This document shows, piece by piece, positions 971-31,897 of a DNA stretch of 32,139 nt. The stretch lies in assembly GCA_030637655.1 (NCBI GenBank), contig DAOWGI010000009.1:1-32139 (forward strand). The letters run 5' to 3'. Each line of letters starts with the position of its first letter. The first letter of the stretch is position 1. This stretch comes from a candidate division FCPU426 bacterium. GTDB taxonomy: Bacteria; Oederibacteriota; JAAXVQ01; JAUVAV01. Under the pieces are notes generated by a model. The model was not told the origin of the DNA. It saw only the letters and a program-made list of their open reading frames with translations, and searched no databases. The translations under genes were made by a program, and so were the position numbers.

Positions 971-1028
971 ATTATGCGGATTAGTATTTTAAACCAAAAG
1001 ATGATCGTCATAAAAGGAGGAATTTAAG

Positions 1029-2003
1029 ATGAGGATAAAACAATGGATAATTGCCGGTTTAATAATAGGCTGGGGTTGGCCCACAGCAGCTTATGCCTTG
1101 AGCGGGGGAGAGTTACTGCGTGAACCGGCCGGCGCCAGGCAGGCGGGTATGGGTGAGGCGCATACTGCCATATCAGGTAATTTGGATGGGCTGTATTATA
1201 ATGCCGCTAGTGTGGCAGACATCAAGGCTCTGCAATTTAGCAGCATGTATGCTCTGAATGCCTTTGAAAATAAAAATATTAGTGTTGCTCTGGGTGTGCC
1301 GGTGCTGTGGTGGGGAAAAGGCGGTTTGGCCATCGGGTTGACTAGTCTGCTGGGGGCTGAAATGGAGATCAATTATTTGGACGGTTCCCAAGAGATGGTT
1401 ACTTCGCAGCAAGATATCGCTTTAACTATTGGTTATGGGCATCAATTAACAACGGGCATGCTGATCGGCGCCAGTATCAAGGCCTTTCATTCTCAACTAA
1501 TGGAAGAGTATGACGCTTTAGCCCTGGGCGCGGATATTGGTCTGATTTATAAACTTCAGGATTTGCCCGGTCTGAGCGCGGGGGTTGCGCTGCAAAATAT
1601 CGGGACTGAAATCAAGTACCTGGACCAGGGTGATCCTATGCCAACGATTCTACGCGCGGGTTTGGCTTACGCGAAGGCTGTTGGACAAGATCATTACTTG
1701 GTAGCCGGCCTGGATGCGCTCTTTAGTAATGACAAGGATCCCCAGCAGCATGTGGGGATCGAGTATGCCTGGCAGGATATGTTGTTTTTACGGACCGGTT
1801 ATAAGCTTGGTTATGATATTGATTCACTAACCGCGGGTGCGGGGTTGAAAATTGAGGGATTGCAGATTGATTATGCTTTTACCAGCCGGAGCATTGCCGA
1901 GAGTATTCACCGTTTTAGCATTGGCTATACTTTTAGTGCCGGTAGAAATAAACAAGCTATAAATCAATCCCCTGAAACTAAGCAGCAGAAAACAGTTAAA
2001 TAG
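1029..2003 (+). CDS. PorV/PorQ (UPF0164)-family outer-membrane beta-barrel protein
   Basis: AAGGAGG RBS, signal peptide, GARQAGMGEA-x-TA...YYNAA motif, DIGLIY, LQNIG, LRTGY, IDYAF, HRFSIGYTF C-terminal strand. Confidence 0.85.
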   Translation: MRIKQWIIAGLIIGWGWPTAAYALSGGELLREPAGARQAGMGEAHTAISGNLDGLYYNAASVADIKALQFSSMYALNAFENKNISVALGVPVLWWGKGGLAIGLTSLLGAEMEINYLDGSQEMVTSQQDIALTIGYGHQLTTGMLIGASIKAFHSQLMEEYDALALGADIGLIYKLQDLPGLSAGVALQNIGTEIKYLDQGDPMPTILRAGLAYAKAVGQDHYLVAGLDALFSNDKDPQQHVGIEYAWQDMLFLRTGYKLGYDIDSLTAGAGLKIEGLQIDYAFTSRSIAESIHRFSIGYTFSAGRNKQAINQSPETKQQKTVK

Positions 2004-2145
2004 TTTATGAGAGAGGTTTTTTAATGGGAATGGGGAGAGATATCGTGTCTTTATGAAAACAAAAAACATCTGGCCGGGATGGTGATGGCCGTTATTTCTT
2101 CAAGCTGCGGTTATTTTAGTAGGGGTTCAAAATTTTGAGCCCCTA

Positions 2146-4110
2146 CTATTTTTCGACCGGGGCCGGTATATTGAAAATAATTTCTACGCGACGGTTTTTA
2201 GCCTGCTTTTTGAGATTGCCGCTTTTAACTAAAAGATTTTCCGCGCCGTAACCTTGCGTGACGATTTTCCGGGAATAGGGTATACCGTGTTGCCGCAGGT
2301 ATTTTTTTACGTTTTCCGAACGCCGGCCGCTTATATTATAATTACCCCATTTCCGTCCAATGGAATCGGCATGTCCTTCAATACCGACCTGACTTTGCGA
2401 ACCATATTTTTGGTAAATCTCTAAAGTTTTTTCAAGCGAAGGCATCATCTCCGGTTGAATATTTGCTTTTTGGAAGTCGAAAATAATCCCGCCTATTTTG
2501 AAACGCACTTGCTTGCTGTCACGCGAAAGGAATTCCGCGGGTATGGGAATAATGGTTTTTTGAATAATAATCCGGGATCCCTCACAATCTGTCAGGTGTA
2601 ATTGATAGGCGTAGTGTTGGGAAGGATCTGCTAAGACACCCTGATCATCTTGTCCATCCCACAACTGTTCGGCCGGCAAGGGGCCGCGTTGCTTTATGGA
2701 GGTTACCTGCTTCCCTTGGTTTTCTTCGATATTCAAAATCCAGGAGTTAATTTTTTTCACATCTCCCTTAAACTGAAACGAAACCCCTGGTTCTATGCCT
2801 TCGCCCCGCTCTTTAAAACATAATTTCACGGCCGGCATAATACTCGGCCAGGTTTGGGTTTGGGTTATTAACCCACGGTCAGTAAAATATTCAAACTGAT
2901 ACACCAATCCATCGGGATTTACCGGCCGGCCCTCGGCATCCAGTCCATCCCAGGTAAACTGACGGGGGATAGCCTGGTGGGCATATGAAAACTCACGCAG
3001 GACATTGCCTTTACTGTCTTTGATTTTAAAATGTAATTCTTTCACTTGATAGTTTTGATCAATAGGTTTTGGCATAAAGATTATTTGGAAATCATTGCTG
3101 CGCGCAGGCAGCTTTTCACGCAATTCAGGAGCTACCGGTCTCGGATGAACGGTTGGAAGGGAGGTCTGAGAAGAAATTTTTTCAGTTAACTCACGCGGCG
3201 TCGCAGGGGGTGGCTGATAACGATAACCTAAGGTAATATAATGCGCGTCGCCGATAAAGCCCGTGGGTTCAAACACATAATCGAGATAGTAATTTTTCCA
3301 CTTGAAACCAATACCTGCCGTAAACCAGGATATTCCTGCCAGTTTTGCCGTATCTGCCGGCCCATTATGCCATCCCGTCCGCACGGCGAGAAATTCAAAA
3401 ACATTCCATTCCACCCCACTCCCAAGATAAATATTGCCATCACGCGGCAGGACAATATCTAAAGCCAGATTTAAACTGGAAAACAATTCCAGGCCGGCCC
3501 CGGTTCGTATTTCCAAACTTAAGGGATCACCGCTATCGGTTTGCCCCCAACGCAGCAACGACGCGCCTATGCGAAGATCAGGCGCGATTTCCCAATCCGC
3601 CCCGAGATCCAGGCCCCAGCCTTTCACCTGGGCAGTATGCAGATCCTGAACAATATAATGCAGTGCCACGCCTAAAGCCACTTCACCTATCATTTGGCCC
3701 CAGGCCAGAGAAGCATCCATATCCCAGGTCGCAAATGAGCCGGTAGGATTATCGAAATTGTCATAACCAAGGATATCGCTGGTTTGGGCATAAGTAAGGC
3801 TTAAGGCCGGCACGCCCCAGGGCAGGGGCCAAGCTGCCCGGAAAAAGCCAAGTTCTGTATCCAGAAGATGGCGGCAAAAGGAAAGCTCCGCATTAAGATA
3901 ATCATAATATGTCAAAGCAGCCGGGTTCCAGTCCAAAGCCTGCGCTCCCACTGCTGCGGCAGTGCCTGCTCCGCCCATAGCCAGTAATCGCGAAGCAGAC
4001 GGCTGTGCCGGCAATAAGGCAGCTGATGTTCCGGCGTTATCTGTGCCAAAAGCCTGGACCTGACTATAAAGGAGAAAGAGGCAGATTGACAGGAGCAGGA
4101 TTTTTTTCAA
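2146..4110 (-). CDS. PorV-family beta-barrel fused to two FlgD-Ig-like modules and a C-terminal OmpA-like peptidoglycan-binding domain
   Basis: AAGGAGG RBS with TTG start, signal peptide, SRLLAMGGAGTA..WNPAAL, HYITLGYRY; FTWDGLDAEG and LWDGQDDQG modules; IIFDF..IEGHADSIG..NYNISGRRS..GYG..NRRVEI OmpA motif. Confidence 0.85.
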   Translation of the reverse strand: MKKILLLSICLFLLYSQVQAFGTDNAGTSAALLPAQPSASRLLAMGGAGTAAAVGAQALDWNPAALTYYDYLNAELSFCRHLLDTELGFFRAAWPLPWGVPALSLTYAQTSDILGYDNFDNPTGSFATWDMDASLAWGQMIGEVALGVALHYIVQDLHTAQVKGWGLDLGADWEIAPDLRIGASLLRWGQTDSGDPLSLEIRTGAGLELFSSLNLALDIVLPRDGNIYLGSGVEWNVFEFLAVRTGWHNGPADTAKLAGISWFTAGIGFKWKNYYLDYVFEPTGFIGDAHYITLGYRYQPPPATPRELTEKISSQTSLPTVHPRPVAPELREKLPARSNDFQIIFMPKPIDQNYQVKELHFKIKDSKGNVLREFSYAHQAIPRQFTWDGLDAEGRPVNPDGLVYQFEYFTDRGLITQTQTWPSIMPAVKLCFKERGEGIEPGVSFQFKGDVKKINSWILNIEENQGKQVTSIKQRGPLPAEQLWDGQDDQGVLADPSQHYAYQLHLTDCEGSRIIIQKTIIPIPAEFLSRDSKQVRFKIGGIIFDFQKANIQPEMMPSLEKTLEIYQKYGSQSQVGIEGHADSIGRKWGNYNISGRRSENVKKYLRQHGIPYSRKIVTQGYGAENLLVKSGNLKKQAKNRRVEIIFNIPAPVEK

Positions 4111-4177
4111 CCGGCAGGTTCCTCCTTTATATTTTTTAGTAACTCTTTTATATTCCGCACAAAGGCCGGGTATTTCT

Positions 4178-6628
4178 TCACGGGGTAATCACGACTTTTT
4201 GTTTGCGTATTTGGCCATCCAATTTCATGATTACCATGTAGGTTCCAGGGGCCAGCTGCTTACCGGCCTGATTTATTCCTTGCCAGAATATACAGCCCTT
4301 ACCCGCGCCGCACCGCGCATTAATTAGGGTAATAATATGCCGTCCGCGCAAATCATAAATTTCCAGAGTAAACCGGCCGCTATGAGGCAAAGCATAGGGG
4401 ATGGTAACGCGCTGGCCGCGCGGGACCGGATTGGGAAAGACATGATGCGCGATGGGTAATCCCTCTCTTTGCTGAAGGCTGATATTAAATTCCTTTGCCG
4501 TATCCTGGGAAAGCGTCACCTCAATATCCGTACTCGCATAATTGAGGTGTATGGGATCTTCCACTCTTAAGGTGTAGGGCAAAACCAAGGGATTAGCTGC
4601 TAATAATTTATATACTCCTACTGAATTGGATTGCACTGCGGTCACGGTCGCGTTCTCAGAAGTCTTGAGCGTCAAGCGGATATCGGGCAAACCCTGTCCG
4701 CTGGCAGCATCACTGACTAGGCCGTATAAGCCGGGAACGAATTCAATCGTTGGTTTAGTGTTGATTTTAACCCCCATAACGCTTACGCTTAGAGTTTTTT
4801 GACCGGCTAGCGGAGAAATCATTTTTGCCGAATATTTCCCCGAACCGGCAGTATCTTCATCCCAGGCCCCAGATAAAAGCGAAGCATCTCCTCCGGATAT
4901 GGTTACGTTGAAATCCGATCTGGACAAATCAGGGATAGGATTGTTGTCTTCATCACGCACCGTAATAGTAATCAAACTGTAATCCTCTTTCCGGCCTGAG
5001 GCTAAAACCGGCTGCGTTGCGGTTATAATTGTTTTATCCTGATCCGGCAATTTGGTCCAGCGCAACAGCATAGCCCCGCTTCGGCCGCCATAAGCAAAAT
5101 TCGTTTCATTCCAGGCTTTCTCCCATTCGACTATGCGCAGGTAATATTTTTGTCCGCTATTTGTGGGCCGGCTGCGCTTGACTTGTAAATCAAATGAGTC
5201 GTAAAAAGATGTATTGTCAATCTTAAACAAACCCGGTTCCCCGGCAACCGCATTAATGTTAGTTCCACTGATTTCCGCCAGGGTATCAGGCGAGACCATG
5301 GAATAGGAATGAAGAAAAATATAAAGTTGATAATCGGGTTGCGTCTCTGACAACAGGGCATTATTACTATTTTCCAGCCTGACTGTCGTACTAATCAATA
5401 CTTCAGGATCTTCTCGTTGTTTCGTTGCGCTCGCGAAACCAATATGGTGAAAAAGATTGGTGTTTTCGGCTAATTCCCAGCAACCTATATCCCACTTATT
5501 CTTCGGACGGGATGCGCCGTCATAATCAACTGCCGGAGCATATTTGCCGCCATATTTATTATTGCCATGTCCCAGAGCAATGGCGTCAAGTGCCGGCGCG
5601 GGCGGATTTTCCGGCCCCCAGGTGAGGGCATAGCAGAAACTGCTTCCCCAGCCGTCCCGCTTCAAGGCGCCCATCCAGGTTTTTTGATTGAAAAAAGAAA
5701 ACGTAGTAGCGCTCTCCAAAAGTATCCCAAAAGCTTGTCCGCTGACAGGTAGAATAAAATTATGGCCGCTCATCCAGGCAGTAACACACTGTTCAGCTTC
5801 ACACGTACTGCCATAGGTGGTATAAATCTGGGCATTGCTGTTATTGCTTATGATATTATTAAAAATAACGGTCCCGATACTGGCATCTTCCACTATAATT
5901 CCGTAATTGCTTTGTCCTTCAATAAAATTATTGACCACGACATTGTTCTTAGTATCCAATAAGTGTATGCCATTTTTATTCCCGTAAATCCAGGAGTTCT
6001 GAATCGTGATATCAGGACAGCGCTCAACCCAAAAGGCGGTTTGCAGGCCGGTGATTATTCCTTTGCTGAATTGTATATCCTTACTCTTGCCGGTGATCAG
6101 CAAACCGTTCCCAGAACCAGCGGTTACTTTTATACTGGACCCGGTGAATTCAATCTTCTGACTCTCCTCTATTTTGATCAAGCTGTCAGTGCCGCCGGGA
6201 TTGAGGGTGCGGAACACGAGCGACTCAAAGCTAATATTTTGGGAGTTTTGTATTTTTAAAACAAATGACTCAGTCTCTTTAGCTTTAATTTCTATTGGAC
6301 CCGGAGGAACAGCGGGAAAGTGACTACTCGATGTATCACCAACAAAACTTACTGCTTGCGGCGTTATTAAGCCGTTGATCTGAAGCCCCACGGTTTTATA
6401 AACCCCGGGCGCGATAATAACATTATATTTTATCGCGGTTGGCGAGTTTTGAATTTCATTGATAGCCTTACTTATGCTTTTTAGGGCGTTGGCAGCGGTC
6501 AGGCCGTCTTTGTCATCATCGCCGGTTGAAGAAACATAATAGGTGATGTCCGCGAATGACAGGCTGGTGTAAAAACAAAGTGAAAAAAGCAGAAGACCCC
6601 ATAGGCGACGAAAAAAAGTTCTGGACAT
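4178..6628 (-). CDS. Exported right-handed parallel beta-helix protein with invasin-type Ig and carboxypeptidase-regulatory-like domains and C-terminal T9SS/FlgD-like domain
   Basis: AAGGAG RBS, signal peptide, YYVSSTGDD..GLTAANALKSISKA start, N/I-rich beta-helix repeats, DYDGASRP..WDIGCWE, ITITVRDEDNNPI, GLVSDAASGQGL, VFPNPV..IYDLRGR..WQGINQAGKQLAPGTY..KVVI. Confidence 0.8.
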   Translation of the reverse strand: MSRTFFRRLWGLLLFSLCFYTSLSFADITYYVSSTGDDDKDGLTAANALKSISKAINEIQNSPTAIKYNVIIAPGVYKTVGLQINGLITPQAVSFVGDTSSSHFPAVPPGPIEIKAKETESFVLKIQNSQNISFESLVFRTLNPGGTDSLIKIEESQKIEFTGSSIKVTAGSGNGLLITGKSKDIQFSKGIITGLQTAFWVERCPDITIQNSWIYGNKNGIHLLDTKNNVVVNNFIEGQSNYGIIVEDASIGTVIFNNIISNNSNAQIYTTYGSTCEAEQCVTAWMSGHNFILPVSGQAFGILLESATTFSFFNQKTWMGALKRDGWGSSFCYALTWGPENPPAPALDAIALGHGNNKYGGKYAPAVDYDGASRPKNKWDIGCWELAENTNLFHHIGFASATKQREDPEVLISTTVRLENSNNALLSETQPDYQLYIFLHSYSMVSPDTLAEISGTNINAVAGEPGLFKIDNTSFYDSFDLQVKRSRPTNSGQKYYLRIVEWEKAWNETNFAYGGRSGAMLLRWTKLPDQDKTIITATQPVLASGRKEDYSLITITVRDEDNNPIPDLSRSDFNVTISGGDASLLSGAWDEDTAGSGKYSAKMISPLAGQKTLSVSVMGVKINTKPTIEFVPGLYGLVSDAASGQGLPDIRLTLKTSENATVTAVQSNSVGVYKLLAANPLVLPYTLRVEDPIHLNYASTDIEVTLSQDTAKEFNISLQQREGLPIAHHVFPNPVPRGQRVTIPYALPHSGRFTLEIYDLRGRHIITLINARCGAGKGCIFWQGINQAGKQLAPGTYMVIMKLDGQIRKQKVVITP

Positions 6629-8529: not shown

Positions 8530-11500
8530 ATGAGGTCAATGATGAGTAATTATCTTATTTCTCAACAAAAAATAATGATGTTATCATTGTGGCATCAGCT
8601 TGCGGCAAAGAAAATCATCAGTATAATATCACTTTTACTTACACTCTCCTTTATTTTTCCTTATTTAACCTGGGCCTTTGAGAGCCAACCCCTGGTGACT
8701 GGAATGCCTGGAGTTGTTTTTAATCATCAGGCCATAAAAATTCCCCGGAACTTAGGCACAGTGACAAAAGCATTTCAGGGTAAAGAACGATTAGTGCTTT
8801 ATATCCATGATTTGCATTGCAATTATGAGGTGCAAACGCATATCGCGCGGCTGATTGAGCACCTGGCCCGTGAACACGGTCTGGACCTGGTGGGAGTGGA
8901 AGGCGCCGCCGGGAGGATTAATGTGAATAAATTATCGACGTTTCCGGTGAAGGCCGTAAAAGAGGAAGTCGGGAAATACTTCATGCAACAGGGAAAAATA
9001 ACCGGAGCGGAATATTATGCGGCTACTGGGAAGTATCCGATTTATTTGCAAGGCATAGAGACAGGTGAGGAGTATCAGGCCAACCGGGAAGCGGCCTTGC
9101 GCTTTTTAAATGATGAAAGTCAAGGTTATGTATTTGATTTGCGGGAGCAACTGGAGGACATTAAGCCGTCAGTTTATAGTGAAGTTTTGCAGAAGCACGA
9201 TAGTCACCGGACGAGGTTCAGTCAAGGAAGGCAATCATTACTGGAATATTGTGTGTTTTTATATAAGGCGGGGTTGCAGGCCAAAGTGCGGATGAAGAAT
9301 TTTCCGCAGTTGTATGCGTATGTATCCAAACGTATGAATGTTTTGCCACGGGAAGCGGATAGCGACGCGCTTTATGCGGAGATGGAGCGGATGGAACAGG
9401 GGTTGCGGGAGAGATTTTACCTGGGGCCGGATGAGCGCGAGCTGGACGGGCTGTTACATAAACTGGATGTAGTTGAGAAGTTGATTAATATTTCAGTCAC
9501 ACCGGAGGAGCTGGCAGAGTACTGTGGAAATAGTGAAAGCTTTCAGGTACAGGCGTATATGGATTTTATCGGGCCACGCCAAGCTGAGTATGGTTTGGGG
9601 CTGGACGAGGAAGTGTACCAACTGGACCAATATCTCAAGCAAGCAGAGGAATTTTACCGGTTGGCAGACAAACGAAGTGTCTCTTTTGTGGAAAACACCC
9701 TGCAGTGCATGGAGCAGCAGCAAACACAGTTGGCAGCGCTGGTAACCGGAGGGTTTCACAGCGAAAGAGTATTAGCGGAATTACAGAGGCATAAAATATC
9801 ATATGTATGCGTAAAACCCAGGCTGAGACAAACGGAAAATATAAACCCCTATTTTTCGTTGCTGCGGAACCAACGTACGCCTTTAGAGAAGCTGCTGGCT
9901 CAGAATCAAAATATTCTGGGCCTGCCAACGTCTTTTAGGGTGGACGGGAAACCACACTTGGAAGACGGACAGGTTTTTTATAAAAATCTTGGTACCACAC
10001 TGAAAACGACGAATTTTGTAGGCCTGATACGCGAGGGAATAAAAGAATTACGCCAATTGTTGATAGAACAGGGAGCGGACATTGCAGCCTACTCTGAAAA
10101 TGACCCGCAAAACGCGTCGATTAAGATAAAAGGCGCAGCAGCGAATATGGAGACCCAAACCTATGTGTTGTCCTTGAAAAACACGGACTTCACAGTAGTG
10201 ATTCAGCCGCGCGGCGCGAAAGAATGCGGGGCGGGAATACTGCGGACCAGGGCGGTATTTAAGGATTACCAAGTTACGATACTGCACAAGGTAACAGCAG
10301 AACAGCGGCAAGCGCTATTAGCAGGTCAAGCTGAGTTGCTAACCACAGAGATACTTTGGCAGGCAATACTAAAAAATCCAATAGCAAAGTTAATATCAGC
10401 CGGGGTCAAGGCCATGGCGCAGATTTTAAACCGGCTTCGCTCTTTGCCCCTGCTGAAAATAACCGGTTTAGCGGCCGCGTTTGCCTGCCTGTATGTTTGT
10501 GTGAGTCTGAGTTCCGCGAATATGCTTTTTGCCGGCGTGTTTTTATCAATTCTGCTCAGTCTTAATATGGCGGCAAATTATTGGACCCCGGTCTCGGATT
10601 GGCTTGGGGATTTTTCATTTTTATCCGCCCGGTCGGATCCGGAAGGCCGTCCAAACAACCTGATGATGAATAATGTATCTAAACCATCAACAACAGGCAT
10701 TTTGTGGGGACTATACCCAAAACCCAGGCAGCCGAGAAGATCAAATAACACTTCAAAACTTGATGAAGAAGTACACGACGCAATTATACAAGGGCAAATT
10801 TTAGAGAATATGGGAATATTATTTGTGCGCACGCCTAAATATTTAGAGGATTTATTTTCATTATATTATAATGACGAGTCGCCTATAGGAAAGCATGCCA
10901 AAAGGCTTGTGCCTGAATTATCCCAGTTGAAGACTAACAAGGAATTTATGGATACAATGTTTGAAGAACTTAAGGATAGGAAAAAGCAATGCAAATATTT
11001 TAATACTAAAAATGAAAAGGGTGTTCCAATGCGTATCTGGGTATATCCTGATGGAACCATAGTTAGATATAAACCAAGGACAGATGAGTCATACCATCAA
11101 CCGCTTTATACTGTCGAGATAAAAAGGTCTGTTTCCAATACATTTAATCTGAAAGCAATCAAGGAGCCTCCGGTATCATTGAGTGATATAGCGTTCAAAG
11201 TAAGTCCCACGGGCGAGCTACTACCAAAAAACAAACAGGAAATTAATAATCCGTATGACATTACTGATCTTGAATATGACGAATATGCGGAAATAATGAT
11301 GGCAAGAGCGCATAATTTTTTACTAAGAGATTCATCGCAAGACGACCTAAATGAAAGAAAACCACCTGCCCCAAGAAGTTGGGACAGACCAAAGACATCC
11401 TTAGAGGACGCGCAAATACCGCCCCCTGTATGGATGTTTCTGCCATTGTGGATAAGTCAAAAAACCCAACAATTACGAACAAGCTTTATTGTCAGCCTCA

Positions 11501-14500
11501 GGGACTGGCTAAAGATAGAAGAAACCGGCCTAGTTTTGGGACTAAAGCAAGCCAACCGGAAAGCAACGATTGATCGGGTAAATGGTAAAATTAAATCATG
11601 GCCGGCGTTTCTTTATAGTATTTGGAAGGAGAATCTTTTTCTGCTGTATTTCAGTTCAATTCATATTGTTGGTTTTGTTTTGGCTGCAGTATTACTTTCT
11701 TTAGGTGATCCTACGTTGCTTGCTTCACACATGCAATTTATAAATATACTGTCCTTTTATTTCGCAGTCTTGCTCTTTGCCATAATACCCTACGGCATAT
11801 CTTTGGATTCCTTTATTGAGGAGCATGGCGCAGAGGTCCCGGTCTGGGAAAATAAGAAAATTAGACTTGTTCCGCGCAACGAGGGCCATGATGTACAACT
11901 GAGCTTTTTATACGGCCTGATAGGCGCTACACCTATTGCCGGCACATGGTTTTTGACTACTTTAGTGGCTGCCAATGGAGGGTTTTTAGGATTTGGATTA
12001 ATTTCAAGTGTGCTCGTTATTTTGATTGCTGAGCCGGTGTTAGGAATGGCGGCTGCCTGGCTTCTCCATGTCTTTGGCTGGGATTTCGGATTAACCAAAT
12101 TGTTTCCGGGCTTGGCATGGGGACATCATGATAAATACTATAAATTCAGATCAGAAAACCGGCCTTCCGATTGGCCAAATACAGCAGAAGACTTAAGCGG
12201 TTTTTTCAATGAGCTGGCGTCGGCTGACAGCGATCAAATAGTTGAAATCTTACAAAGTATAAAACCAGAACACTGGCCTGAGATTACTGAATTTATCCAG
12301 ACCTCAATAGGCAACCGGTCATTGAAGAAGGAGCAGATTAAGCGTGTCCAAAAATCAATTGGCGATTTGAAAAACACACCTAACTATGATACATACTTGA
12401 ATACTTTTAGCATGACAGATGTGGAGATGGAAAACCTCAGGGCATTTATTAATTATTTAGACGGCATATTAGGGGTTGTGGCTGAAGTTGTTGATCCTAA
12501 AGGGGAAAGAGATCCGGTTATTGATCAGGTCATTATAGCCAATCTGAGCAGCATTAAAGGCATTATTGATGATAAGCGTTTTCGCGAATTCAACCTGCTG
12601 GAACAAGCAGTAACCGCTTTCTTTAATATCATACCCGACATCAAAGTAGATATGGCAGAGGCTCACGCGCCTCATAAAGATAAAAGGATGGCTCTGGCGG
12701 ATTTTATCTTCGCGCACTGGGCGGTAGGTGGAAATGAGGAAAAATGGGATTTGCTGTATAAAAATATTTACGCGTATCAAAGTTTTTCCAGAGAAGAACG
12801 TATGGCAATAAATAAATTTATTATGTCTCTGGAGCACGGCAACATAAATCTTGAAGTGCGACAAAACATTTTATCATACATAGCTTATATGGTGGCGGAG
12901 GTTAAAGGGATTACCCCCAAGCGGGAAGCGCTTATTTTAGCATTAAAAGAACAAGCGAAGGAGAAAGGGATTAAGTTTGATTTTGATGAAGAAACAATAA
13001 AAATGGCTAAAAAAGCTGCTGAGCCTGAAAAAACCAGGCCCAAACCCGTACAGCCCAAAGCCGCAGCTGAGAAAGCTAAGGAAGCTGAGAAAGCTGAGAA
13101 AGCTGAGAAAGCTAAGAAAGCTAAGAAAGCTGAGAAAGCTAAGAAAGCTAAGAAAGCTAAGAAAGCTAAGAAAGCTAAGAAAGCTAAGAAAGCTAAGAAA
13201 GCTAAGAAAGCTAAAGTTAAGGTTCCTGATATACACGAGGCTATGGCGCATGCGACCGGATGGGTGGCGGTGCTAGTGGATTTTATGGATATGTACAATG
13301 ATGAAGAAAAAGAAGATGTCCACCTGCGCAAAAGTTGGATACTTAAGTCGAAGAACGAGAACATAATTGTTGAATTCAAGACCCTGTATGATTTAATCAA
13401 TAAATTTGATACTCTGGAGGAAGAATTAAAGTTAGCCAAAAAGGTAGAATTAGAGGTAGCCAAAAAGGTAAAATTAAAATTAGCCGAAAAGGGCGAATTA
13501 GAGTTAGCCGAAAAGGGCGAATTAGAGTTAGCCGAAGAGGAAGAATTAAAGTTGGCTAAAAAGGTAGAATTAGAGTTAGCCAAAAAGGGCGTAGTTCTTA
13601 GGGACTGGTTTTATTTAAGAGAAACGATCAACGCGATCTTTAAGTCACTGAGGGAATCTTCGGATAACAAGCCGCAACCTAAAGAAAACCTCTTATTTGA
13701 AGAAAAGTTCCGAGAAAGCATTTTAGCTGATCCCAGCGTACTCCTGGACTGGCGGAAAGAGGTGCTGAGGAATAAATTTGAGCGTCTACACCAGGCAGCG
13801 ATAAGCATTGCTGCTGAAATATCAAAAGTCAATAAAACTATGAATAAAAGGCGCTTTAAGTCAATTGAAGGGAAGGTGGAATGTGAAGATTCAATCCCTA
13901 AAGCACTAAAAAGCCTGAGAGGTGTAGCAAAGCTGTTTTTAGTCGAAAAATTAAAATTAGAGAATAAACCCGCAGTAGCCAGGAAAAAGCCCGGGAAGCC
14001 CAGTAGTGGTAGCGCGGTAAAGCTTAGGGGAACGGCGCTTCCGCTCATTCCGCTCTTTCTTGCCTGGTTTTGGCAGGGCGAAAACTACCAGGTTTTAATC
14101 TTGGTATTTGCAGCTGCTGTCGGACTGTGGCATGCGGCCAGGTTAGGGGCAAAGCTTGTGGGAAAAATGTATTATCAATGGACTCTGCGCAGCGTGCGGG
14201 AACCCTTGGCAGATAAAGAAACCGGCCCAAAGGGGCAGTTAGAAAAGGATGGTTTACTCAAAGTTGCCCGATCTCAGGTTCCATCAACGGTTAGTAAAAT
14301 GCCAACCACAGAGCGTCTGACTGAAAGGGCGGGTGAAGCATATGCCCATCAATTTACCTTGGCACAAAAATTTACGCATTATTTATTACGTTCAATAATA
14401 TTTGCTCCGGGATTTGAACAAGCCGGCAATTTAAAGCTGCGTTTGCCAATAGAAGCTCTTGCCGGATTAATCGCAGTTGGCTTGATACTATTCAGAAGCG

Positions 14501-15525
14501 CTGTAAGATTGTGGCTGGGAACAGTGTCTGATGAAGGTGTTGACATTGACGTCAATCATCCGGAAATCGCGGCTTTACTGCTTGAAAACGGCTTGCCGGA
14601 TAAGACTGCTCTTAAGATGGCAGCTAAAAAAGGGACACCCTTACTAAAAATATGGATTATAGCGCTTAACCGGGAAAACAAAAAACAATTTGGTCGTACT
14701 TTTGGGATTATTGGCGGCTTTAAAATGCGGGAATCACAGGCAGACTTGTATCTGCCTGCTTTTCTGCTGCAAACCGTTATGAAAGGTTATCCGAAAACCG
14801 GGAACAATACCTTGCGCCTGCTTTGGGAGAAACAAAAATATGAAGTAAGCCGCTATTTTTTAAGTTTGTTGCTTAAACAGCATGCAACAACTTATCAAGC
14901 GAAAATCCGAATTGATGTGATAGTAGAGGTTTTACTCGCGAATTTAGCGCAAAAAGCAGAATCATTGGAACAGAATCTGCCAACCATGCATAAGGTTTTA
15001 AATCTGGCCGGCATATTGCCGAGGTTTTTACGCGCGCCTGTTCATTGTTACTACCGAAGGGAAAATCCGAAAAGTTATTTAAAGTTTGCATTAAAAGATT
15101 TGTCTACACCTTTTGCCAACAGGTTGCTTGATCCGAAAAACCAAGCCCATAAAATGTATTTATTGTATGCTCAAGTGGCGAATGAGGCTACTCGACAGTT
15201 GTTTGTAAACGCCATGATGGCAGAGCTTAAGCAAGTGATGTTAGTAAATACTGAGCCGGAGCTGCGGGCCTCAGTCGGTTCATTCATTATGCTTTCCAGC
15301 CAGACGCCGGATCTGCGGGGCCGAGAAATAGACAGATGGAAACATCAACCTGGCGGTGTTTTTGGGCCGAAGATTATTATTCCGAAATTGATGCTGCAAA
15401 AGGGAAACAGCGGAATACTTGGGATATTAAAAATTATTCTGGCCACCCTGCGGGAAGCACCGCAATGGAAAAACATTGCTCCCCTAAGGCCGCCGGTGCG
15501 CAGAGGCATAGCGGGTGCTGTTTAA
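8530..15525 (+). CDS. Giant (2331 aa) multi-TM protein with a probable EreA/ChaN/TIKI-like N-terminal domain; start codon uncertain
   Basis: 7-kb uninterrupted ORF; signal-like hydrophobic N-terminus; YIHDLH, LVGVEG, ADKRS..FVEN and LVTGGFH motifs; several hydrophobic TM clusters; low-complexity repeats. Confidence 0.8.
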   Translation: MRSMMSNYLISQQKIMMLSLWHQLAAKKIISIISLLLTLSFIFPYLTWAFESQPLVTGMPGVVFNHQAIKIPRNLGTVTKAFQGKERLVLYIHDLHCNYEVQTHIARLIEHLAREHGLDLVGVEGAAGRINVNKLSTFPVKAVKEEVGKYFMQQGKITGAEYYAATGKYPIYLQGIETGEEYQANREAALRFLNDESQGYVFDLREQLEDIKPSVYSEVLQKHDSHRTRFSQGRQSLLEYCVFLYKAGLQAKVRMKNFPQLYAYVSKRMNVLPREADSDALYAEMERMEQGLRERFYLGPDERELDGLLHKLDVVEKLINISVTPEELAEYCGNSESFQVQAYMDFIGPRQAEYGLGLDEEVYQLDQYLKQAEEFYRLADKRSVSFVENTLQCMEQQQTQLAALVTGGFHSERVLAELQRHKISYVCVKPRLRQTENINPYFSLLRNQRTPLEKLLAQNQNILGLPTSFRVDGKPHLEDGQVFYKNLGTTLKTTNFVGLIREGIKELRQLLIEQGADIAAYSENDPQNASIKIKGAAANMETQTYVLSLKNTDFTVVIQPRGAKECGAGILRTRAVFKDYQVTILHKVTAEQRQALLAGQAELLTTEILWQAILKNPIAKLISAGVKAMAQILNRLRSLPLLKITGLAAAFACLYVCVSLSSANMLFAGVFLSILLSLNMAANYWTPVSDWLGDFSFLSARSDPEGRPNNLMMNNVSKPSTTGILWGLYPKPRQPRRSNNTSKLDEEVHDAIIQGQILENMGILFVRTPKYLEDLFSLYYNDESPIGKHAKRLVPELSQLKTNKEFMDTMFEELKDRKKQCKYFNTKNEKGVPMRIWVYPDGTIVRYKPRTDESYHQPLYTVEIKRSVSNTFNLKAIKEPPVSLSDIAFKVSPTGELLPKNKQEINNPYDITDLEYDEYAEIMMARAHNFLLRDSSQDDLNERKPPAPRSWDRPKTSLEDAQIPPPVWMFLPLWISQKTQQLRTSFIVSLRDWLKIEETGLVLGLKQANRKATIDRVNGKIKSWPAFLYSIWKENLFLLYFSSIHIVGFVLAAVLLSLGDPTLLASHMQFINILSFYFAVLLFAIIPYGISLDSFIEEHGAEVPVWENKKIRLVPRNEGHDVQLSFLYGLIGATPIAGTWFLTTLVAANGGFLGFGLISSVLVILIAEPVLGMAAAWLLHVFGWDFGLTKLFPGLAWGHHDKYYKFRSENRPSDWPNTAEDLSGFFNELASADSDQIVEILQSIKPEHWPEITEFIQTSIGNRSLKKEQIKRVQKSIGDLKNTPNYDTYLNTFSMTDVEMENLRAFINYLDGILGVVAEVVDPKGERDPVIDQVIIANLSSIKGIIDDKRFREFNLLEQAVTAFFNIIPDIKVDMAEAHAPHKDKRMALADFIFAHWAVGGNEEKWDLLYKNIYAYQSFSREERMAINKFIMSLEHGNINLEVRQNILSYIAYMVAEVKGITPKREALILALKEQAKEKGIKFDFDEETIKMAKKAAEPEKTRPKPVQPKAAAEKAKEAEKAEKAEKAKKAKKAEKAKKAKKAKKAKKAKKAKKAKKAKKAKVKVPDIHEAMAHATGWVAVLVDFMDMYNDEEKEDVHLRKSWILKSKNENIIVEFKTLYDLINKFDTLEEELKLAKKVELEVAKKVKLKLAEKGELELAEKGELELAEEEELKLAKKVELELAKKGVVLRDWFYLRETINAIFKSLRESSDNKPQPKENLLFEEKFRESILADPSVLLDWRKEVLRNKFERLHQAAISIAAEISKVNKTMNKRRFKSIEGKVECEDSIPKALKSLRGVAKLFLVEKLKLENKPAVARKKPGKPSSGSAVKLRGTALPLIPLFLAWFWQGENYQVLILVFAAAVGLWHAARLGAKLVGKMYYQWTLRSVREPLADKETGPKGQLEKDGLLKVARSQVPSTVSKMPTTERLTERAGEAYAHQFTLAQKFTHYLLRSIIFAPGFEQAGNLKLRLPIEALAGLIAVGLILFRSAVRLWLGTVSDEGVDIDVNHPEIAALLLENGLPDKTALKMAAKKGTPLLKIWIIALNRENKKQFGRTFGIIGGFKMRESQADLYLPAFLLQTVMKGYPKTGNNTLRLLWEKQKYEVSRYFLSLLLKQHATTYQAKIRIDVIVEVLLANLAQKAESLEQNLPTMHKVLNLAGILPRFLRAPVHCYYRRENPKSYLKFALKDLSTPFANRLLDPKNQAHKMYLLYAQVANEATRQLFVNAMMAELKQVMLVNTEPELRASVGSFIMLSSQTPDLRGREIDRWKHQPGGVFGPKIIIPKLMLQKGNSGILGILKIILATLREAPQWKNIAPLRPPVRRGIAGAV
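13066..13215 (+). repeat. 9-bp in-frame tandem repeat GCTRAGRAA x16 (A-E/K-K)
   Basis: 16 full units at 13066-13209 plus a partial unit; encodes AEKAKEAEK...AKKAKK. Confidence 0.97.
13423..13590 (+). repeat. 24-bp in-frame tandem repeat x7 (ELELAKKG/V)
   Basis: Seven units resembling GAATTAGAGTTAGCCRAAAAGGKM starting at 13423, 13447, 13471, 13495, 13519, 13543 and 13567. Confidence 0.93.
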
Positions 15526-15941: not shown

Positions 15942-17240
15942 ATGCCTATACTAAAGCAATGGCGGCTTTTCTATTTACTGGTTTTGATCATGGGTGGGAT
16001 AACAGTTTTGTCCGGCAGAGCGGATTATATTGATGACGACAAGCTGCGCTGGAAAGAATTTTATCAGGAATTTACGCCCGAATCCAAAGCCAATCAGTGG
16101 TTTACGCCTTTTGCCGCAGAAAACCGCAATGATATAAAAACCATTCAAGTTGTCAGTGTTTTCGGTTCGCCCCGTAAATCCTATCTCAAAGGGCATATTC
16201 ATACCGGCCTGGATGTGATTCCGAAGAAGAAAGTGGAAAAATATGTCTATGTTTTTCCTCTGGCCAACGGGGTCGTGTGCTCAGTGCACTTGGGCCATCC
16301 GCATAAAACCATTGTACTTAAGCATGTGCTGCCAAACGGCCAATTGATATATACATCTTACAAGCATTTGGAAAGTATTTATTTGAGCCAGGGGGAACAG
16401 GTCACCCGGCACTTCAAATTGGGACGGCTGTACACCAGGAAAGAAGCTTTGGCCCAGGGCGGAAATTATGATCATTTGCACTTGGAAATAAGAAAACAAT
16501 TTGATGATTACGGAGTCGCCAGTTGGGCTACCCTGACTACAGATGCGCTGCGGCAAAGATTTTACAATCCCCTTGCATTTATGCGAAAAAAAATATCATT
16601 GGTTTTGCCCAAAGTCGTCATTATCAATCCCCGGAAGGATAAAAACGACCTGTCATTGGTGACCCCCATTATTGCCGCGCTGGATGTGAAATTCAGATGT
16701 CAGCCCGTGGTATTGCACTACCTTGAAGCGGATATTGAAAAAATCAAACAACTTTCGCCGCAGACCATTATTATTGCCGGGCAATCCACGCCCTGGCATT
16801 TGTATACCGCCGAAGAACTGACTGCTATTTTCACGTTGCTTAAAAGCACCACGGTTCCGGTGTTGGGCATCTGTGGCGGCCATCAACTCATTGCTTTGGC
16901 TTACGGCGCCAAGGTGGGATTGATCAAAGGGAAACACAAACCTGCTGCTTATAAAAATTGTTTTCGCTCAGAAGGAATGATTGCAACCAAAATTATAAAA
17001 CCGGATAAAATACTGGCAGGCTTACCGGCCAAACTCCGGGTCTATGTCTCGCATTGTGAGGAAATCAAATCTTTGCCGCGGAAATTCGAGCTGTTAATCA
17101 AAGGCCGGATGTCAAAATTGCAAATGATAAAACATAAAAACAAGGAAATCTATGGGGTGCAATTTCATCCGGAACAGAGATCGCCGGAAAATCCGGACGG
17201 CATGAAAATCTTGGAAAATTTTATTGAACACCATATGTAA
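15942..17240 (+). CDS. Exported M23-family metallopeptidase fused to a class I glutamine amidotransferase (GATase/peptidase C26-like) domain
   Basis: Signal peptide; HTGLD (HxxxD), YKHL and DHLHLEIR (HxH) of M23; PVLGICGGHQ and GVQFHPE catalytic triad of GATase-1. Confidence 0.85.
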   Translation: MPILKQWRLFYLLVLIMGGITVLSGRADYIDDDKLRWKEFYQEFTPESKANQWFTPFAAENRNDIKTIQVVSVFGSPRKSYLKGHIHTGLDVIPKKKVEKYVYVFPLANGVVCSVHLGHPHKTIVLKHVLPNGQLIYTSYKHLESIYLSQGEQVTRHFKLGRLYTRKEALAQGGNYDHLHLEIRKQFDDYGVASWATLTTDALRQRFYNPLAFMRKKISLVLPKVVIINPRKDKNDLSLVTPIIAALDVKFRCQPVVLHYLEADIEKIKQLSPQTIIIAGQSTPWHLYTAEELTAIFTLLKSTTVPVLGICGGHQLIALAYGAKVGLIKGKHKPAAYKNCFRSEGMIATKIIKPDKILAGLPAKLRVYVSHCEEIKSLPRKFELLIKGRMSKLQMIKHKNKEIYGVQFHPEQRSPENPDGMKILENFIEHHM

Positions 17241-18845: not shown

Positions 18846-18873
18846 ATGCCCTGCTGAAAAATCAGCAGGGCAT
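18846..18873. terminator. Stem-loop, probable intrinsic terminator after the helicase
   Basis: ATGCCCTGCTGA-AAAA-TCAGCAGGGCAT, a 12-bp perfect stem with a weak U-tail. Confidence 0.65.
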
Positions 18874-19001: not shown

Positions 19002-19120
19002 GTGTGCCACGAGGCTGCACGAGAGATGAGGGCGGGTCCCTTGGCATCGGCTTGCACGAGCCGGTGCCAAACCGCCTTGAGCTGCTGTGCCCAAAAGGCA
19101 TGGTGGTGTAAATCCGGGGG
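19002..19120 (+). mobile_element. Group II intron 5' fragment (start of domain I), truncated
   Basis: Begins GTGTGCC; collinear with the element at 31645 (GATGA.GGCGGG..AAACCGCCTT..GCTGCTGT..CAAAAG..ATGGT.GTG..GGTGTAAAT) with compensatory stem changes. Confidence 0.75.
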
Positions 19121-19173
19121 CATCATACTTAACTATTTAATAATTAAAAACATCATAAGAATACAAGAAAACC

Positions 19174-20586
19174 TTATGAAGCTGAGACTAGCCCAATAGC
19201 AGGCCGTTTTCTTATAATTTGCAACAGAGCTCCATTATTGTTCCAACGGCTTACAATACTGTGCCACTCATCTAGTGATTTTAATTGGTTTGAATTGGAG
19301 ACGTGGGCCCAGTACTGCCCATAGCCAACGTAGATAATATTCTCTCCTTCCAATCCCCTCGTGCCGGTGGACTTGGTATTTTTAATATGCCCCCAATCTC
19401 CGGGAATCCAATCGTCTCTTGAAAGCACAAAATCGTCTACAGCTATTTCAGAAAATTCACTACCCACCATCATAGTGATGTAAGCGGCCAACTGACATCC
19501 TATCTTGTAATTAAATTTATCTTCTTTATCATTGTAGATATCAAGTAATGCCTCTTTGTAATCCTTGAGGTCGGTTTTAACTTGCCATTTATTTTTTTTG
19601 GTATCAGGATCAATAACCTTTTCCCAATATTTTGGATTCAACCTGGTATTTGAGCCGACACCGAAGCCATACGGTTTGTCCTTCCTGGTTAATTCGACGA
19701 TGCCCATTCTGGCTTCTATATGTGCCTTGAGATTTGTGATTGCCTCTGTGGTATTACTGCCCATGAGAGGGAATTCTCTTCCGGATGAGAGCATATCGCT
19801 GACGATCTGAGAGTCAAGCCAGGGCATCATGGTGCGGAATCTGGAATAGATGTCCCCTGTTCGTTGGGCGTCATGTATCTCGTGCTCTGCAAAAAACTCA
19901 TCAAGCGATACGTCGGGATGTACTTTGATCGTGCGTTGAATATGATTAGGCCCTTGCCGTTGGCTGACATGAGCCAATTCATGCGCTAAAAGCCACTTTC
20001 CCCGGGAGGTTGTTGGTGAATATTCACTACGGCCAAAAGCAATGGAGTTGCCGCAACTAAAGGCCCTGGCATTGATCCGCTGTGCCATGTTTTCTGCTTT
20101 TTGATCATGATGGATTCGAACTTGTAAAAAATCCTGCCCGAATCGGGATTCAAAATAGGAACGTTCAGATGCAGGCAGCGGTGATCCTTCACCCAGCGTT
20201 GACTGAACGCCGGATTTACTTGAGGTGGATTTTTGTGCATTGGTCTGGTGTTCTGCAGTTTCATTAATAGATGTACCACCCATAATTTCGTCAGCACGGC
20301 GATTTGCTGTTTGTTCATGTTTGTCATCTGGTTTTCCAATAGTTAGCTTCGGTTTCTGACAGGAGGGGCAACCGCCTTCACAAACGCATTTAGTTTGTAT
20401 CAGTGGAAGCGGTGCAGCGGCAACAGCCGGACTTTTTTGAGGCTGCAGGTTTTTTAGCGGAAAGACAATCCGTTTTTCCAGAAGATTGGATTTGGAAAGT
20501 CTCATAACAGTACGCATAATTTCCCGGTCCTTTTTGTTTTTTGTAATGCCATCGATAATGACGGTCTGCCGCTTATAATATTTCAT
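19174..20586 (-). CDS. DUF4157 (eCIS core) domain protein with C-terminal Tgl-like protein-glutamine gamma-glutamyltransferase domain
   Basis: CVCEGGCPSC, KLTIGKPDDKHEQTANRRADEI, GSPLP..FESRFGQDF..VRIH..ARAF..LLAHELAHVSQ; then NPKYW, YKIGCQLAA, DWIPGD, GENIIYVG..YWAH. Start codon uncertain. Confidence 0.85.
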   Translation of the reverse strand: MKYYKRQTVIIDGITKNKKDREIMRTVMRLSKSNLLEKRIVFPLKNLQPQKSPAVAAAPLPLIQTKCVCEGGCPSCQKPKLTIGKPDDKHEQTANRRADEIMGGTSINETAEHQTNAQKSTSSKSGVQSTLGEGSPLPASERSYFESRFGQDFLQVRIHHDQKAENMAQRINARAFSCGNSIAFGRSEYSPTTSRGKWLLAHELAHVSQRQGPNHIQRTIKVHPDVSLDEFFAEHEIHDAQRTGDIYSRFRTMMPWLDSQIVSDMLSSGREFPLMGSNTTEAITNLKAHIEARMGIVELTRKDKPYGFGVGSNTRLNPKYWEKVIDPDTKKNKWQVKTDLKDYKEALLDIYNDKEDKFNYKIGCQLAAYITMMVGSEFSEIAVDDFVLSRDDWIPGDWGHIKNTKSTGTRGLEGENIIYVGYGQYWAHVSNSNQLKSLDEWHSIVSRWNNNGALLQIIRKRPAIGLVSAS

Positions 20587-20713: not shown

Positions 20714-20968
20714 TCATTGCCTAATACATATTTTACCACTAGTGATTTTCTGACCTGCTTGATAAATTAGATATAAATAAACGCCCGAAGATTGCAGACC
20801 GGGATCCCAGGCGATTATCGGCTGACTGGGATCAACCCGGTTGGATATTCGGGAGACCAGTCTACCTGCAGGTGTATAAATAAGAATTTCAATCTGCGCG
20901 TTCTTTTCAAGCGGAATATGAAAGTATACCAGGGATTTGCTGGGATTTAGAAGGTGAATTGTAATCAC
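20714..20968 (-). pseudogene. Orphan T9SS/FlgD-like C-terminal domain (gene remnant)
   Basis: NPS..VYFHIPL..IEILIYTPAGRLV..WD..SSGVYLY..GKICI; an in-frame TAA lies four codons upstream of the GTG; no signal peptide or RBS. Confidence 0.6.
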
Positions 20969-31644: not shown

Positions 31645-31897
31645 GTGCGCCGCAGATAAGCTGTATAAATAATGATGAAGGCGGGCCCTTCGGAGCCGGT
31701 ATGCAGGTACAGGCTTCAAACCGCCTTATGCTGCTGTAGTCAAAAGCTATGGTAGTGAGCGATGAGGAAAAGTCTCAACCAAATGAGGCAGGTGTAAATA
31801 TGGGAGACGAACGTAAGTGAACCACTGCTGAACGCGTCGAGAGGTTCCCGCACCGTTCTGCGAGCGGCTTAAGGGGAAGTTCCTTTGGCCGACTCAC
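31645..31897 (+). mobile_element. Internally deleted, ORF-less group II intron (5' domain I joined to 3' half of domain V plus domain VI)
   Basis: Starts GTGCG; ends CGAGAGGTTCCCGCACCGTTCTGCGAGCGGCTTAAGGGGAAGTTCCTTTGGCCGACTCAC with an AY terminus; 253 nt. Confidence 0.85.

What the first reader, a model, noticed from the sequence alone, without database searches (positions are those of the whole stretch)
19174..20586. DUF4157 (eCIS-associated) protein with a Tgl-like transglutaminase: candidate cross-linking or deamidating effector
Seen: after DUF4157 the C-terminus has NPKYW, YKIGCQLAA (C364), DWIPGDWGHIKN, GENII (E415) and YWAH (H428). Known: Bacillus subtilis spore-coat Tgl uses Cys116 with Glu187, and His200 lies 13 residues after Glu187, the same E-to-H spacing as here; DUF4157 proteins are linked to extracellular contractile injection systems and carry variable C-terminal toxin domains. 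The Glu before the Tgl Cys is replaced by Gly here. Inference: a spore-coat enzyme fold repurposed as an injected effector. No eCIS structural gene or obvious immunity gene is in the window.
Basis: partly seen in the sequence, partly recalled or inferred. Interest (0 to 1): 0.75.

Follow-up and report, generated by a model that had tools for sequence, protein, structure and literature searches.

The report
Spore-coat enzyme relative as injected toxin
This gene encodes a likely cargo protein of a bacterial injection needle, whose business end is a relative of the enzyme that cross-links Bacillus spore coats; many relatives sit inside needle gene clusters with a small neighbouring gene predicted to plug the enzyme, so it looks like an uncharacterised toxin–antidote family.

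Summary
Observation confirmed. The 470-aa ORF (likely start Met24) carries eCIS_core/DUF4157 followed by a Tgl-family domain. Its fold matches Bacillus-type Tgl best (Z 15.7). C364, E415 and H428 align with Tgl C116, E187 and H200; the Cys is present in 143 of 143 aligned sequences.

The domain is a C-terminal tip on two carriers, DUF4157 proteins and Rhs-type proteins. Of 31 GTDB loci with the DUF4157 form, 22 hold eCIS marker genes. A ~90-aa gene of no known family follows the domain in 28 genes and occurs nowhere else in the loci. A complex model of one cognate pair places it over the catalytic cysteine. That is the anatomy of a polymorphic toxin with an immunity protein.

Limits: this copy is an orphan, with no eCIS genes and no partner, and an intron fragment lies just downstream. 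Tgl's Glu115 and Trp149 segment are missing, so cross-linking is not established. A DUF4157–transglutaminase toxin of another family (EAT14) is published. The direction "spore enzyme repurposed" is untested and may be reversed. Verdict: new variant of a known kind.

The parts
19174..20586 (-). Whole ORF, 470 aa from Met1; probable gene 19174-20517 (447 aa from Met24): DUF4157-Tgl-family effector
20182..20517 (-). aa 24-135: polar, aromatic-poor N-terminal region with CxCxGxCxxC and KLTIG..D..E..A..AD motifs like other DUF4157 proteins; putative disordered eCIS loading sequence (inferred)
   Evidence: composition (W/F/Y 0.9% against 10% in the folded domains); alignment; role by analogy to 10.64898/2026.05.27.728243
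19951..20181 (-). aa 136-212: eCIS_core (DUF4157), HExxH intact (HELAH 202-206)
   Evidence: Pfam E 4e-27
19177..19944 (-). aa 215-470: Tgl-family (NlpC/P60-like papain fold) C-terminal domain
19495..19497 (-). C364, predicted nucleophile (= Tgl C116)
   Evidence: 143 of 143 sequences with a residue in the column
19342..19344 (-). E415 (= Tgl E187), in G-E-N motif
   Evidence: 132 of 150
19303..19305 (-). H428 (= Tgl H200)
   Evidence: 125 of 144
19028..19145 (+). Group II intron domain-I fragment (RF01999) about 30 nt past the stop codon, in the space where relatives carry the partner gene; no partner remnant detectable
   Evidence: 58.8 bits against gathering 36
18846..18873 (.). 12-bp hairpin between the converging DEAD-box helicase gene and this gene, with a T-tail on the minus strand; likely terminator
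   Evidence: consensus scan only

Best explanation
The protein is an eCIS cargo-type effector whose C-terminal domain belongs to an uncharacterised polymorphic-toxin family related to Bacillus spore-coat Tgl. Likely working: (1) the disordered N-terminus directs loading into the eCIS tube through the Afp15-type AAA ATPase (inferred from AlgoCIS); (2) after injection, C364 attacks the side-chain amide of glutamine in target proteins to form a thioester, helped by E415 and H428 (inferred from Tgl; residues and fold shown, chemistry not); (3) the thioester is resolved by an amine (cross-linking) or by water (deamidation). I put glutamine-directed chemistry at about 0.6 and cannot separate the two outcomes; loss of Tgl's Trp149 segment suggests a more open, less specific cleft. 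(4) In many relatives a ~90-aa protein encoded directly downstream binds over the active site and protects the producer (linkage shown, binding modelled, protection inferred). The window copy is an orphan without that partner; its particle, if any, must be encoded elsewhere in the genome.
For: Fold: model pLDDT 94.9; best match Tgl 7c9j Z 15.7, rmsd 2.8 over 172, next best Z 10.0; Foldseek 7c9j E 4.4e-8 and 4p8i E 1.3e-7, the only two at E<=0.001. Conservation. Carrier swapping: of the best 150 of 278 hits, 58 carry eCIS_core (56 above cut-off), 33 have an Rhs-end-like DPxG motif just before the domain by pattern match, 3 have Pfam RHS_repeat; the domain is nearly always at the C-terminus. Context: 34 DUF4157-Tgl genes in 31 of 47 GTDB loci; 22 of 31 loci hold at least one eCIS marker, 18 of 31 at least two, and 18 of the 20 loci with over 19 kb held have a marker; 0 of 7 Rhs-type genes do. 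The window domain's sister in the tree (95/82) is a Smithella gene inside a locus with 8 eCIS markers. Partner: all 29 profile hits at E<0.1 (28 genes) start -15 to +422 nt from a Tgl-domain stop on the same strand, none elsewhere in 742,846 nt. It lacks a hydrophobic N-terminus in 22 genes beside DUF4157-type or partial genes and has one in 6 beside Rhs-type or non-DUF4157 genes (4 scored, 2 read by eye). Complex model of the Chitinophaga sp. GbtcB8 pair: score 0.89, best of 3 controls 0.35; the mark was reached by 116 of 157 solved complexes and 2 of 215 mismatched pairs (counts hold only roughly with my alignments); runs agree in at least 95% of contacts, partner pLDDT at least 89. The interface includes the residues equivalent to C364, H400, E415 and N416. 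Precedent: EAT14 toxicity needs C298, D397 and H410.
Against: No activity or toxicity was measured. Position 363 is Ala in 71, Gly in 46 and Glu in 3 of 143, whereas Tgl E115A had no detectable activity and E187A kept about 60%. Cys-to-Glu spacing is 51 here against 71 in Tgl; Tgl W149, Y171 and W184 are absent, His and Leu here. The window has no eCIS gene and no partner gene. 15 of 34 DUF4157-Tgl genes also lack the partner, and 9 of 31 loci show no eCIS marker. The loci are not independent (five near-identical Nitrotoga-type loci, one identical pair) and were found with one peptide pattern. The partner profile was seeded from these same loci, and the complex was modelled for a relative 38% identical over the domain, not for the window protein.
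Confidence: 0.66

Rival explanations
1. Same effector role, but the domain is a cysteine hydrolase (protease or peptidoglycan peptidase/amidase like NlpC/P60, Tae3 or Tse1), not a glutamine-directed enzyme.
For: After Tgl, the next fold matches are NlpC/P60 and CHAP peptidases (Z up to 10.0). Tgl's E115 and W149 segment are missing. Partners beside Rhs-type genes look exported, as expected for an envelope target. The EAT14 authors also leave protease activity open.
Against: The canonical NlpC/P60 His position is Glu as in Tgl (PMC10318531 passage). Sequence and fold are clearly closer to Tgl. The partner of DUF4157 forms has no signal sequence, which implies damage in the cytoplasm, where there is no sacculus.
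Confidence: 0.18
2. The family reading is right, but this copy is a stranded cassette: acquired without its operon and partner, and not used.
For: No eCIS gene in 19 kb and 11.5 kb of flank; intron fragment just downstream; lone sorting-tail-like ORF upstream; long terminal branch of 0.96 against a median of 0.45; several departures from family consensus (H400, A427).
Against: The reading frame, HExxH and C/E/N/H are intact. Orphan and partner-less copies are common among relatives, including copies inside complete operons, and many verified eCIS toxins lack immunity genes (PMC8213781).
Confidence: 0.25
3. Not a toxin: a Tgl-like 'spot-welding' enzyme that cross-links the particle or a surface layer, with the small protein as chaperone or substrate.
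For: Tgl itself fortifies a protein assembly (PMC6490927). 15 of 34 genes have no partner.
Against: The domain occupies the variable C-terminal position on two unrelated toxin carriers and lies among other DUF4157 genes with other tips (21 of 31 loci). The partner follows the domain rather than the carrier, and the partner loop modelled in the cleft has no conserved Gln or Lys.
Confidence: 0.06

Closest known systems
Bacillus subtilis / Geobacillus Tgl spore-coat transglutaminase (PF20085; PDB 4P8I, 4PA5, 7C9J)
   Same: Fold; C116/E187/N188/H200/F69/R52 equivalents (C364, E415, N416, H428, F308, R293); E-to-H spacing of 13.
   Different: About 18% identity; no E115; the 20-residue segment with W149 is missing; W184/R185 are L412/E413; fused to a delivery domain; NCBIfam Tgl equivalog score 16.3 against cut-off 307; no sporulation context.
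EAT14 of Chitinophaga rupis (DUF4157-LysM-Transglut_prok; PMC11297309)
   Same: DUF4157 plus a C-terminal transglutaminase-like domain; Cys ... acid-x12-His arrangement (D397-H410); eCIS association.
   Different: EAT14 is in the Streptomyces/Kutzneria MTG family (PF09017), has LysM, Asp instead of Glu and a Cys-to-acid spacing of 99. None of 151 relatives scanned here hits PF09017, and 140 of 151 hit TGL. No partner of this kind is described in the passages read.
DUF4157 / PVC-metallopeptidase polymorphic toxins; AlgoCIS cargo Cgo1/Cgo2
   Same: Disordered N-terminus, DUF4157 with HExxH, variable C-terminal domain.
   Different: This C-terminal domain and its partner were not found described; the window copy is outside an operon.
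Tox-TGase and NlpC/P60 toxin domains (Zhang et al. 2012, PMC3482391)
   Same: Papain-fold toxin tips on polymorphic toxins.
   Different: Tox-TGase is described there as the AvrPphE/RTX-type clade; 'Tgl' occurs 0 times in that paper's listing. No direct sequence comparison was made.

Membership tests
Pfam TGL (PF20085) domain family | Score above gathering cut-off | tested here: met
   36.8 against 23.7 bits
Pfam TGL (PF20085) domain family | Tgl fold | tested here: met
   Z 15.7, rmsd 2.8, 172 aligned to 7c9j; Foldseek
Tgl spore-coat transglutaminase (orthologue) | Cys116, Glu187, His200 equivalents | tested here: met
   distances in the model could not be measured
Tgl spore-coat transglutaminase (orthologue) | Glu115 next to the catalytic Cys (dual dyad) | tested here: not met
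   Gly363; Glu in 3 of 143
Tgl spore-coat transglutaminase (orthologue) | Tunnel-entrance residues F69, W149, Y171, W184, N188 | tested here: not met
   F and N kept; W149 segment absent; Y171 is H400 (Tyr in 122 of 151 sequences); W184 is L412
Tgl spore-coat transglutaminase (orthologue) | Equivalog score NF002869 | tested here: not met
   16.3 against 307 bits
Tgl spore-coat transglutaminase (orthologue) | Gln-Lys cross-linking or amine incorporation | not testable with these tools
   needs assay
DUF4157 eCIS-associated toxins (EATs) | N-terminal polar region + DUF4157 with HExxH + C-terminal enzyme domain | tested here: met
   (composition only; no disorder predictor was run)
DUF4157 eCIS-associated toxins (EATs) | Gene within or beside an eCIS operon | tested here: not met
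   none in the window; met for 22 of 31 relative loci
DUF4157 eCIS-associated toxins (EATs) | eCIS operon elsewhere in the same genome | not testable with these tools
   the longest contig holding the protein is the window's length; the genome was not among the GTDB hits
DUF4157 eCIS-associated toxins (EATs) | Toxicity and loading into particles | not testable with these tools
   needs experiment
Polymorphic toxin-immunity systems | Same C-terminal domain on different delivery carriers | tested here: met
   DUF4157 and Rhs forms
Polymorphic toxin-immunity systems | Cognate immunity gene directly downstream (family level) | tested here: met
   19 of 34 DUF4157-Tgl genes at E<1e-5; 28 partner genes in all; binding modelled; protection not tested
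Polymorphic toxin-immunity systems | Cognate immunity gene beside the window copy | tested here: not met
   best score -1.5 bits, within the null range
MTG / Transglut_prok (EAT14 type) | PF09017 match | tested here: not met
   no hit at E<=0.1 for the window protein or E<=0.001 in 151 relatives
MTG / Transglut_prok (EAT14 type) | MTG fold | tested here: inconclusive
   not among the rows listed

The most novel reading that the evidence does not exclude
This family is a cross-linking or deamidating interbacterial toxin with its own active-site-plugging immunity protein, and Bacillus spore-coat Tgl is a domesticated descendant of it: a toxin tip that lost its carrier and inhibitor, gained Glu115 and tunnel residues, and became a structural enzyme. 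The toxin-type forms occur in many phyla and an archaeon, and the Rhs-type forms keep the helix after the Cys that Tgl has and the main DUF4157 clade lacks. The small partner would then be a natural inhibitor of Tgl-type transglutaminases.
Probability: 0.3. Interest if true: 0.72.

Novelty: new variant of a known kind. Interest (0 to 1): 0.52.

Why it matters
It supplies a testable toxin-immunity pair for eCIS, where most verified antibacterial toxins have no known immunity gene (PMC8213781). The pair exists in cultured isolates such as Chitinophaga sp. GbtcB8. It extends the Tgl family, known only as a spore-coat enzyme in the papers found, into conflict systems across many phyla, and makes the origin of Tgl a tractable phylogenetic question. 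Natural variants lacking Glu115 and the Trp149 segment test what this fold needs for cross-linking as opposed to hydrolysis. The window copy itself is a less useful experimental subject than its operon-embedded relatives.

Tried and rejected
Single-sequence PDB search found nothing; only the profile reached Tgl. tblastn of the domain against plasmids and GenBank phages gave no match. PADLOC gave no hit for 5 proteins, so a defence role has no support. The partner has no Pfam family; its model (pLDDT 82.8) has best Z 6.3, a common alpha/beta arrangement; Atlas look-alikes at 0.89-0.91 labelled enoyl-CoA hydratase are treated as leads only. A search meant to fetch Bacillales Tgl sequences returned 9 proteins, none of them Tgl, so no tree with Tgl could be built and the direction of descent is untested. 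A partner remnant downstream of the window gene was sought with stops read as X and not found; that the intron fragment displaced a partner gene is therefore speculation. An E115-to-E413 compensatory swap was looked at: the 3 sequences with Glu at 363 lack Glu at 413, too few to conclude. G+C and GC3 of the gene do not stand out from its neighbours. The ABC transporter beside relative L004 resembles the window's only at family level (22-47%) and was rejected as synteny. MTG structures were not among the fold rows listed, which does not exclude remote kinship. Cluster members and source names for the closest relative remain unseen. Metagenome and IMG/VR contig collections were not searched, so neighbourhoods of the metagenomic hits are unchecked.

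Full report
OBSERVATION. The protein collection calls the start at Met24 (447 aa). Pfam finds eCIS_core (DUF4157) at aa 136-212 (E 4e-27) and TGL above its cut-off (36.8 against 23.7 bits). The NCBIfam model for true Tgl scores 16.3 against a cut-off of 307, so this is a Tgl-family domain and not a Tgl orthologue. The neighbours are a DEAD-box helicase, a SIMPL protein, an ABC transporter cluster and PorV/FlgD-type secretion genes; none of the 19 ORFs scanned is an eCIS gene. tblastn with 25 eCIS proteins from relatives gave one 59-aa hit at E 0.004. The longest contig holding the protein is as long as the window, so the rest of the genome could not be examined.

FOLD AND ACTIVE SITE. A single-sequence PDB search found nothing. 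A 28-sequence profile hit only the two Tgl sequences significantly (7c9j E 7e-16, 4p8i E 1.1e-9). The AlphaFold2 model of aa 215-470 (108 sequences, pLDDT 94.9) matches 7c9j at Z 15.7, rmsd 2.8 over 172 residues, well above the NlpC/P60 peptidases that follow (Z up to 10.0). Foldseek agrees. Counting from the printed alignment, R293, F308, C364, E415, N416 and H428 correspond to Tgl R52, F69, C116, E187, N188 and H200. In the alignment of 152 sequences, C364 is present in 143 of 143 with a residue in that column, E415 in 132 of 150, N416 in 145 of 150 and H428 in 125 of 144. Differences matter. Position 363 (Tgl E115) is Ala in 71, Gly in 46 and Glu in 3 of 143. PMC6490927 (passages) reports no detectable activity for E115A, H200A and C116A, and about 60% for E187A. 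The 20-residue Tgl segment carrying W149 is missing (Cys-to-Glu spacing 51 here, median 52 in DUF4157 forms, 62 in Rhs-type forms, 71 in Tgl). W184 and R185 are L412 and a fairly conserved E413.

THE FAMILY. The domain alone found 278 clusters at 50% identity (E<=0.001); the best 150 were examined. With one further relative, 140 of 151 hit TGL and none hit Transglut_prok. Of the 150, 58 carry eCIS_core (56 above cut-off), 33 have an Rhs-end-like DPxG pattern just upstream, 19 have other QR-type N-termini and 40 are fragments or unclassed. The pattern rule is rough and misfiled at least one Pfam-confirmed Rhs protein; Pfam RHS_repeat was found in 3. The domain almost always ends the protein. 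One conserved enzyme domain at the tip of two unrelated carriers is the defining layout of polymorphic toxins (established knowledge; PMC3482391, passages).

GENOMIC CONTEXT OF RELATIVES. One GTDB scan with a single peptide pattern gave 47 loci from Acidobacteriota, Bacteroidota, Pseudomonadota, Cyanobacteriota, Planctomycetota, Thermodesulfobacteriota and others, plus two archaeal records. The window's own genome was not among them. They hold 54 Tgl-domain reading frames; 34 are DUF4157 fusions in 31 loci. With marker families confirmed by Pfam on representatives (sheath, tube, CIS_tube, baseplate J, gp25, spike OB, Pvc16_N, CIS_TMP, DUF6519, AAA), 22 of 31 loci have at least one marker and 18 of 31 at least two. 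Of the 20 loci with more than 19 kb held, 18 have a marker. None of 7 Rhs-type genes has one. Five Nitrotoga-type loci are near-identical and two others are identical, so the independent count is lower. In a tree of 52 domains (three short pieces left out), the window sequence falls in the main DUF4157 clade (96/93) as sister (95/82) to a Smithella gene inside a locus with 8 markers, on a long branch.

THE PARTNER GENE. All-against-all clustering showed a ~90-aa ORF family next to the domain. After two profile iterations, all 29 hits at E<0.1 (28 genes) begin -15 to +422 nt from the stop of a Tgl-domain gene on the same strand, and none lies elsewhere in 742,846 nt of loci or in the window. 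It follows 19 of 34 DUF4157-Tgl genes at E<1e-5. The 22 copies beside DUF4157-type or partial genes have no hydrophobic N-terminus. The 6 beside Rhs-type or non-DUF4157 genes have a hydrophobic N-terminus with a Cys (4 scored, 2 read by eye; no signal-peptide predictor was run). It has no Pfam or PADLOC family and no distinctive fold match. For the Chitinophaga sp. GbtcB8 pair (L010) the complex model scored 0.89 with best of 3 controls 0.35. The mark was reached by 116 of 157 solved complexes and 2 of 215 mismatched pairs, counts that hold only roughly with my alignments. Runs agreed in at least 95% of contacts and partner pLDDT was at least 89. The partner's Gly-rich loop 57-67 contacts toxin residues 129-132, 162-164 and 176-182, which map to window C364, H400, E413-N416. 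In Tgl, Y171, R185 and N188 line the glutamine-substrate entrance. This supports, but does not show, an inhibitor that plugs that entrance. It also indicates that the Cys helix and the GEN strand form one cleft.

THIS COPY. No partner is detectable downstream even with stops read as X (best -1.5 bits; null median -0.8, maximum 3.3). About 30 nt past the stop lies a group II intron domain-I fragment (19028-19145, 58.8 bits), then a hairpin at 18846-18873. Whether a partner gene was lost there cannot be told; the Smithella sister and 14 other DUF4157-Tgl genes lack it too.

MECHANISM. Shown: architecture, fold, conserved C/E/N/H, eCIS linkage of relatives, carrier swapping, partner linkage. Modelled: partner binding at the active site. 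Inferred: loading through the N-terminal region, since in AlgoCIS the disordered N-terminal domain is required and DUF4157 is dispensable (10.64898/2026.05.27.728243, passages); Cys-thioester chemistry on glutamine; toxicity; immunity. A partner that is cytoplasmic with one carrier and apparently exported with another suggests a target class present in both compartments, which fits protein modification better than peptidoglycan cleavage (inference).

WHAT IS KNOWN. PMC11297309 (passages, section 11 part 1, supplement searches) describes EAT14, a DUF4157-LysM-Transglut_prok protein toxic to E. coli and yeast and dependent on C298, D397 and H410. The concept is therefore published, but for the MTG family. 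In its supplements PF20085 and TGL occur 0 times, and three family motifs occur 0 times in the prediction table; I did not check whether that file was stored whole. The Atlas holds clusters automatically named eCIS core/protein-glutamine gamma-glutamyltransferase (51 and 53 members), so the domain pairing is already in automatic annotation. Eight literature searches turned up no paper describing Tgl-family toxin tips or this partner. PF20085 appears in one paper, PMC10318531 (passages), only as the spore-coat enzyme. For some searches only the top 20 of 161 and 67 listings were seen, and subscription journals are not covered. Also seen as passages: PMC8213781, PMC5612097, PMC7725329 and 10.1101/2021.10.19.465003 (its supplements, which list candidate toxin domains, could not be seen and may include this family). 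Fernandes et al. 2015 was not read directly.

DIRECTION OF DESCENT. The toxin-type forms are spread over many phyla, and Rhs-type members keep the post-Cys helix seen in Tgl. That Tgl proper is largely confined to spore-forming Bacilli is my recollection, only partly backed. Domestication of a toxin is thus at least as plausible.

VERDICT. Real, correctly described, and better supported as an effector family than the window alone suggested. It is a new variant of a known kind, and its most original element is the partner gene. Interest 0.52.

Noticed in passing
window 31646-31892 (+): Short ORF-less group II intron-like element: GTGCG start, domain-I match RF01999 (114 bits, 31677-31793) and a D5/D6-like end read by eye; a second, truncated fragment lies at 19002-19150.
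   Followed up: partly
window 8530-15525 (+): 2331-aa protein with no Pfam family above cut-off, several hydrophobic segments and a KKAKKA-type repeat; resembles giant proteins of candidate-phylum bacteria (recalled, not tested).
   Followed up: no
window 1-6628: PorV/PorQ-family genes (NF033709 above cut-off for 1029-2003) with cargo-like proteins ending in FlgD_ig domains, and a PorV-like/FlgD/OmpA fusion: a type IX-like sorting arrangement.
   Followed up: no
window 20714-20968 (-): Lone 84-aa ORF resembling a C-terminal sorting domain (Por_Secre_tail E 0.0066, below cut-off) just upstream of the effector; possibly a gene remnant.
   Followed up: partly
window 15942-17240 (+): Fusion of a Peptidase M23 domain and a class I glutamine amidotransferase domain.
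   Followed up: no
window about 21000: G+C falls from about 45% to about 38% to the right of the effector, across the SIMPL and ABC transporter cluster.
   Followed up: no
L043 1-6339; L045 1-3103: Tandem arrays of Tgl-domain genes, each followed by an exported-looking partner, in Planctomycetota and Armatimonadota; they resemble toxin-immunity cassette arrays.
   Followed up: partly
L044 9805-10246; L042 9989-10341: The Tgl-domain gene is in two pieces inside an eCIS operon (L044); Ca. Methanoperedens holds only a C-terminal piece plus a partial partner (L042).
   Followed up: no
L003 1401-17783: Acidobacterial array of eight DUF4157-containing frames with no eCIS structural marker within 10 kb on either side.
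   Followed up: no
L010 9392-12063; L026 9581-12702; L039 7213-10231: Adjacent duplicated DUF4157-Tgl genes; in L026 each copy has its own partner, in L010 only the first.
   Followed up: partly
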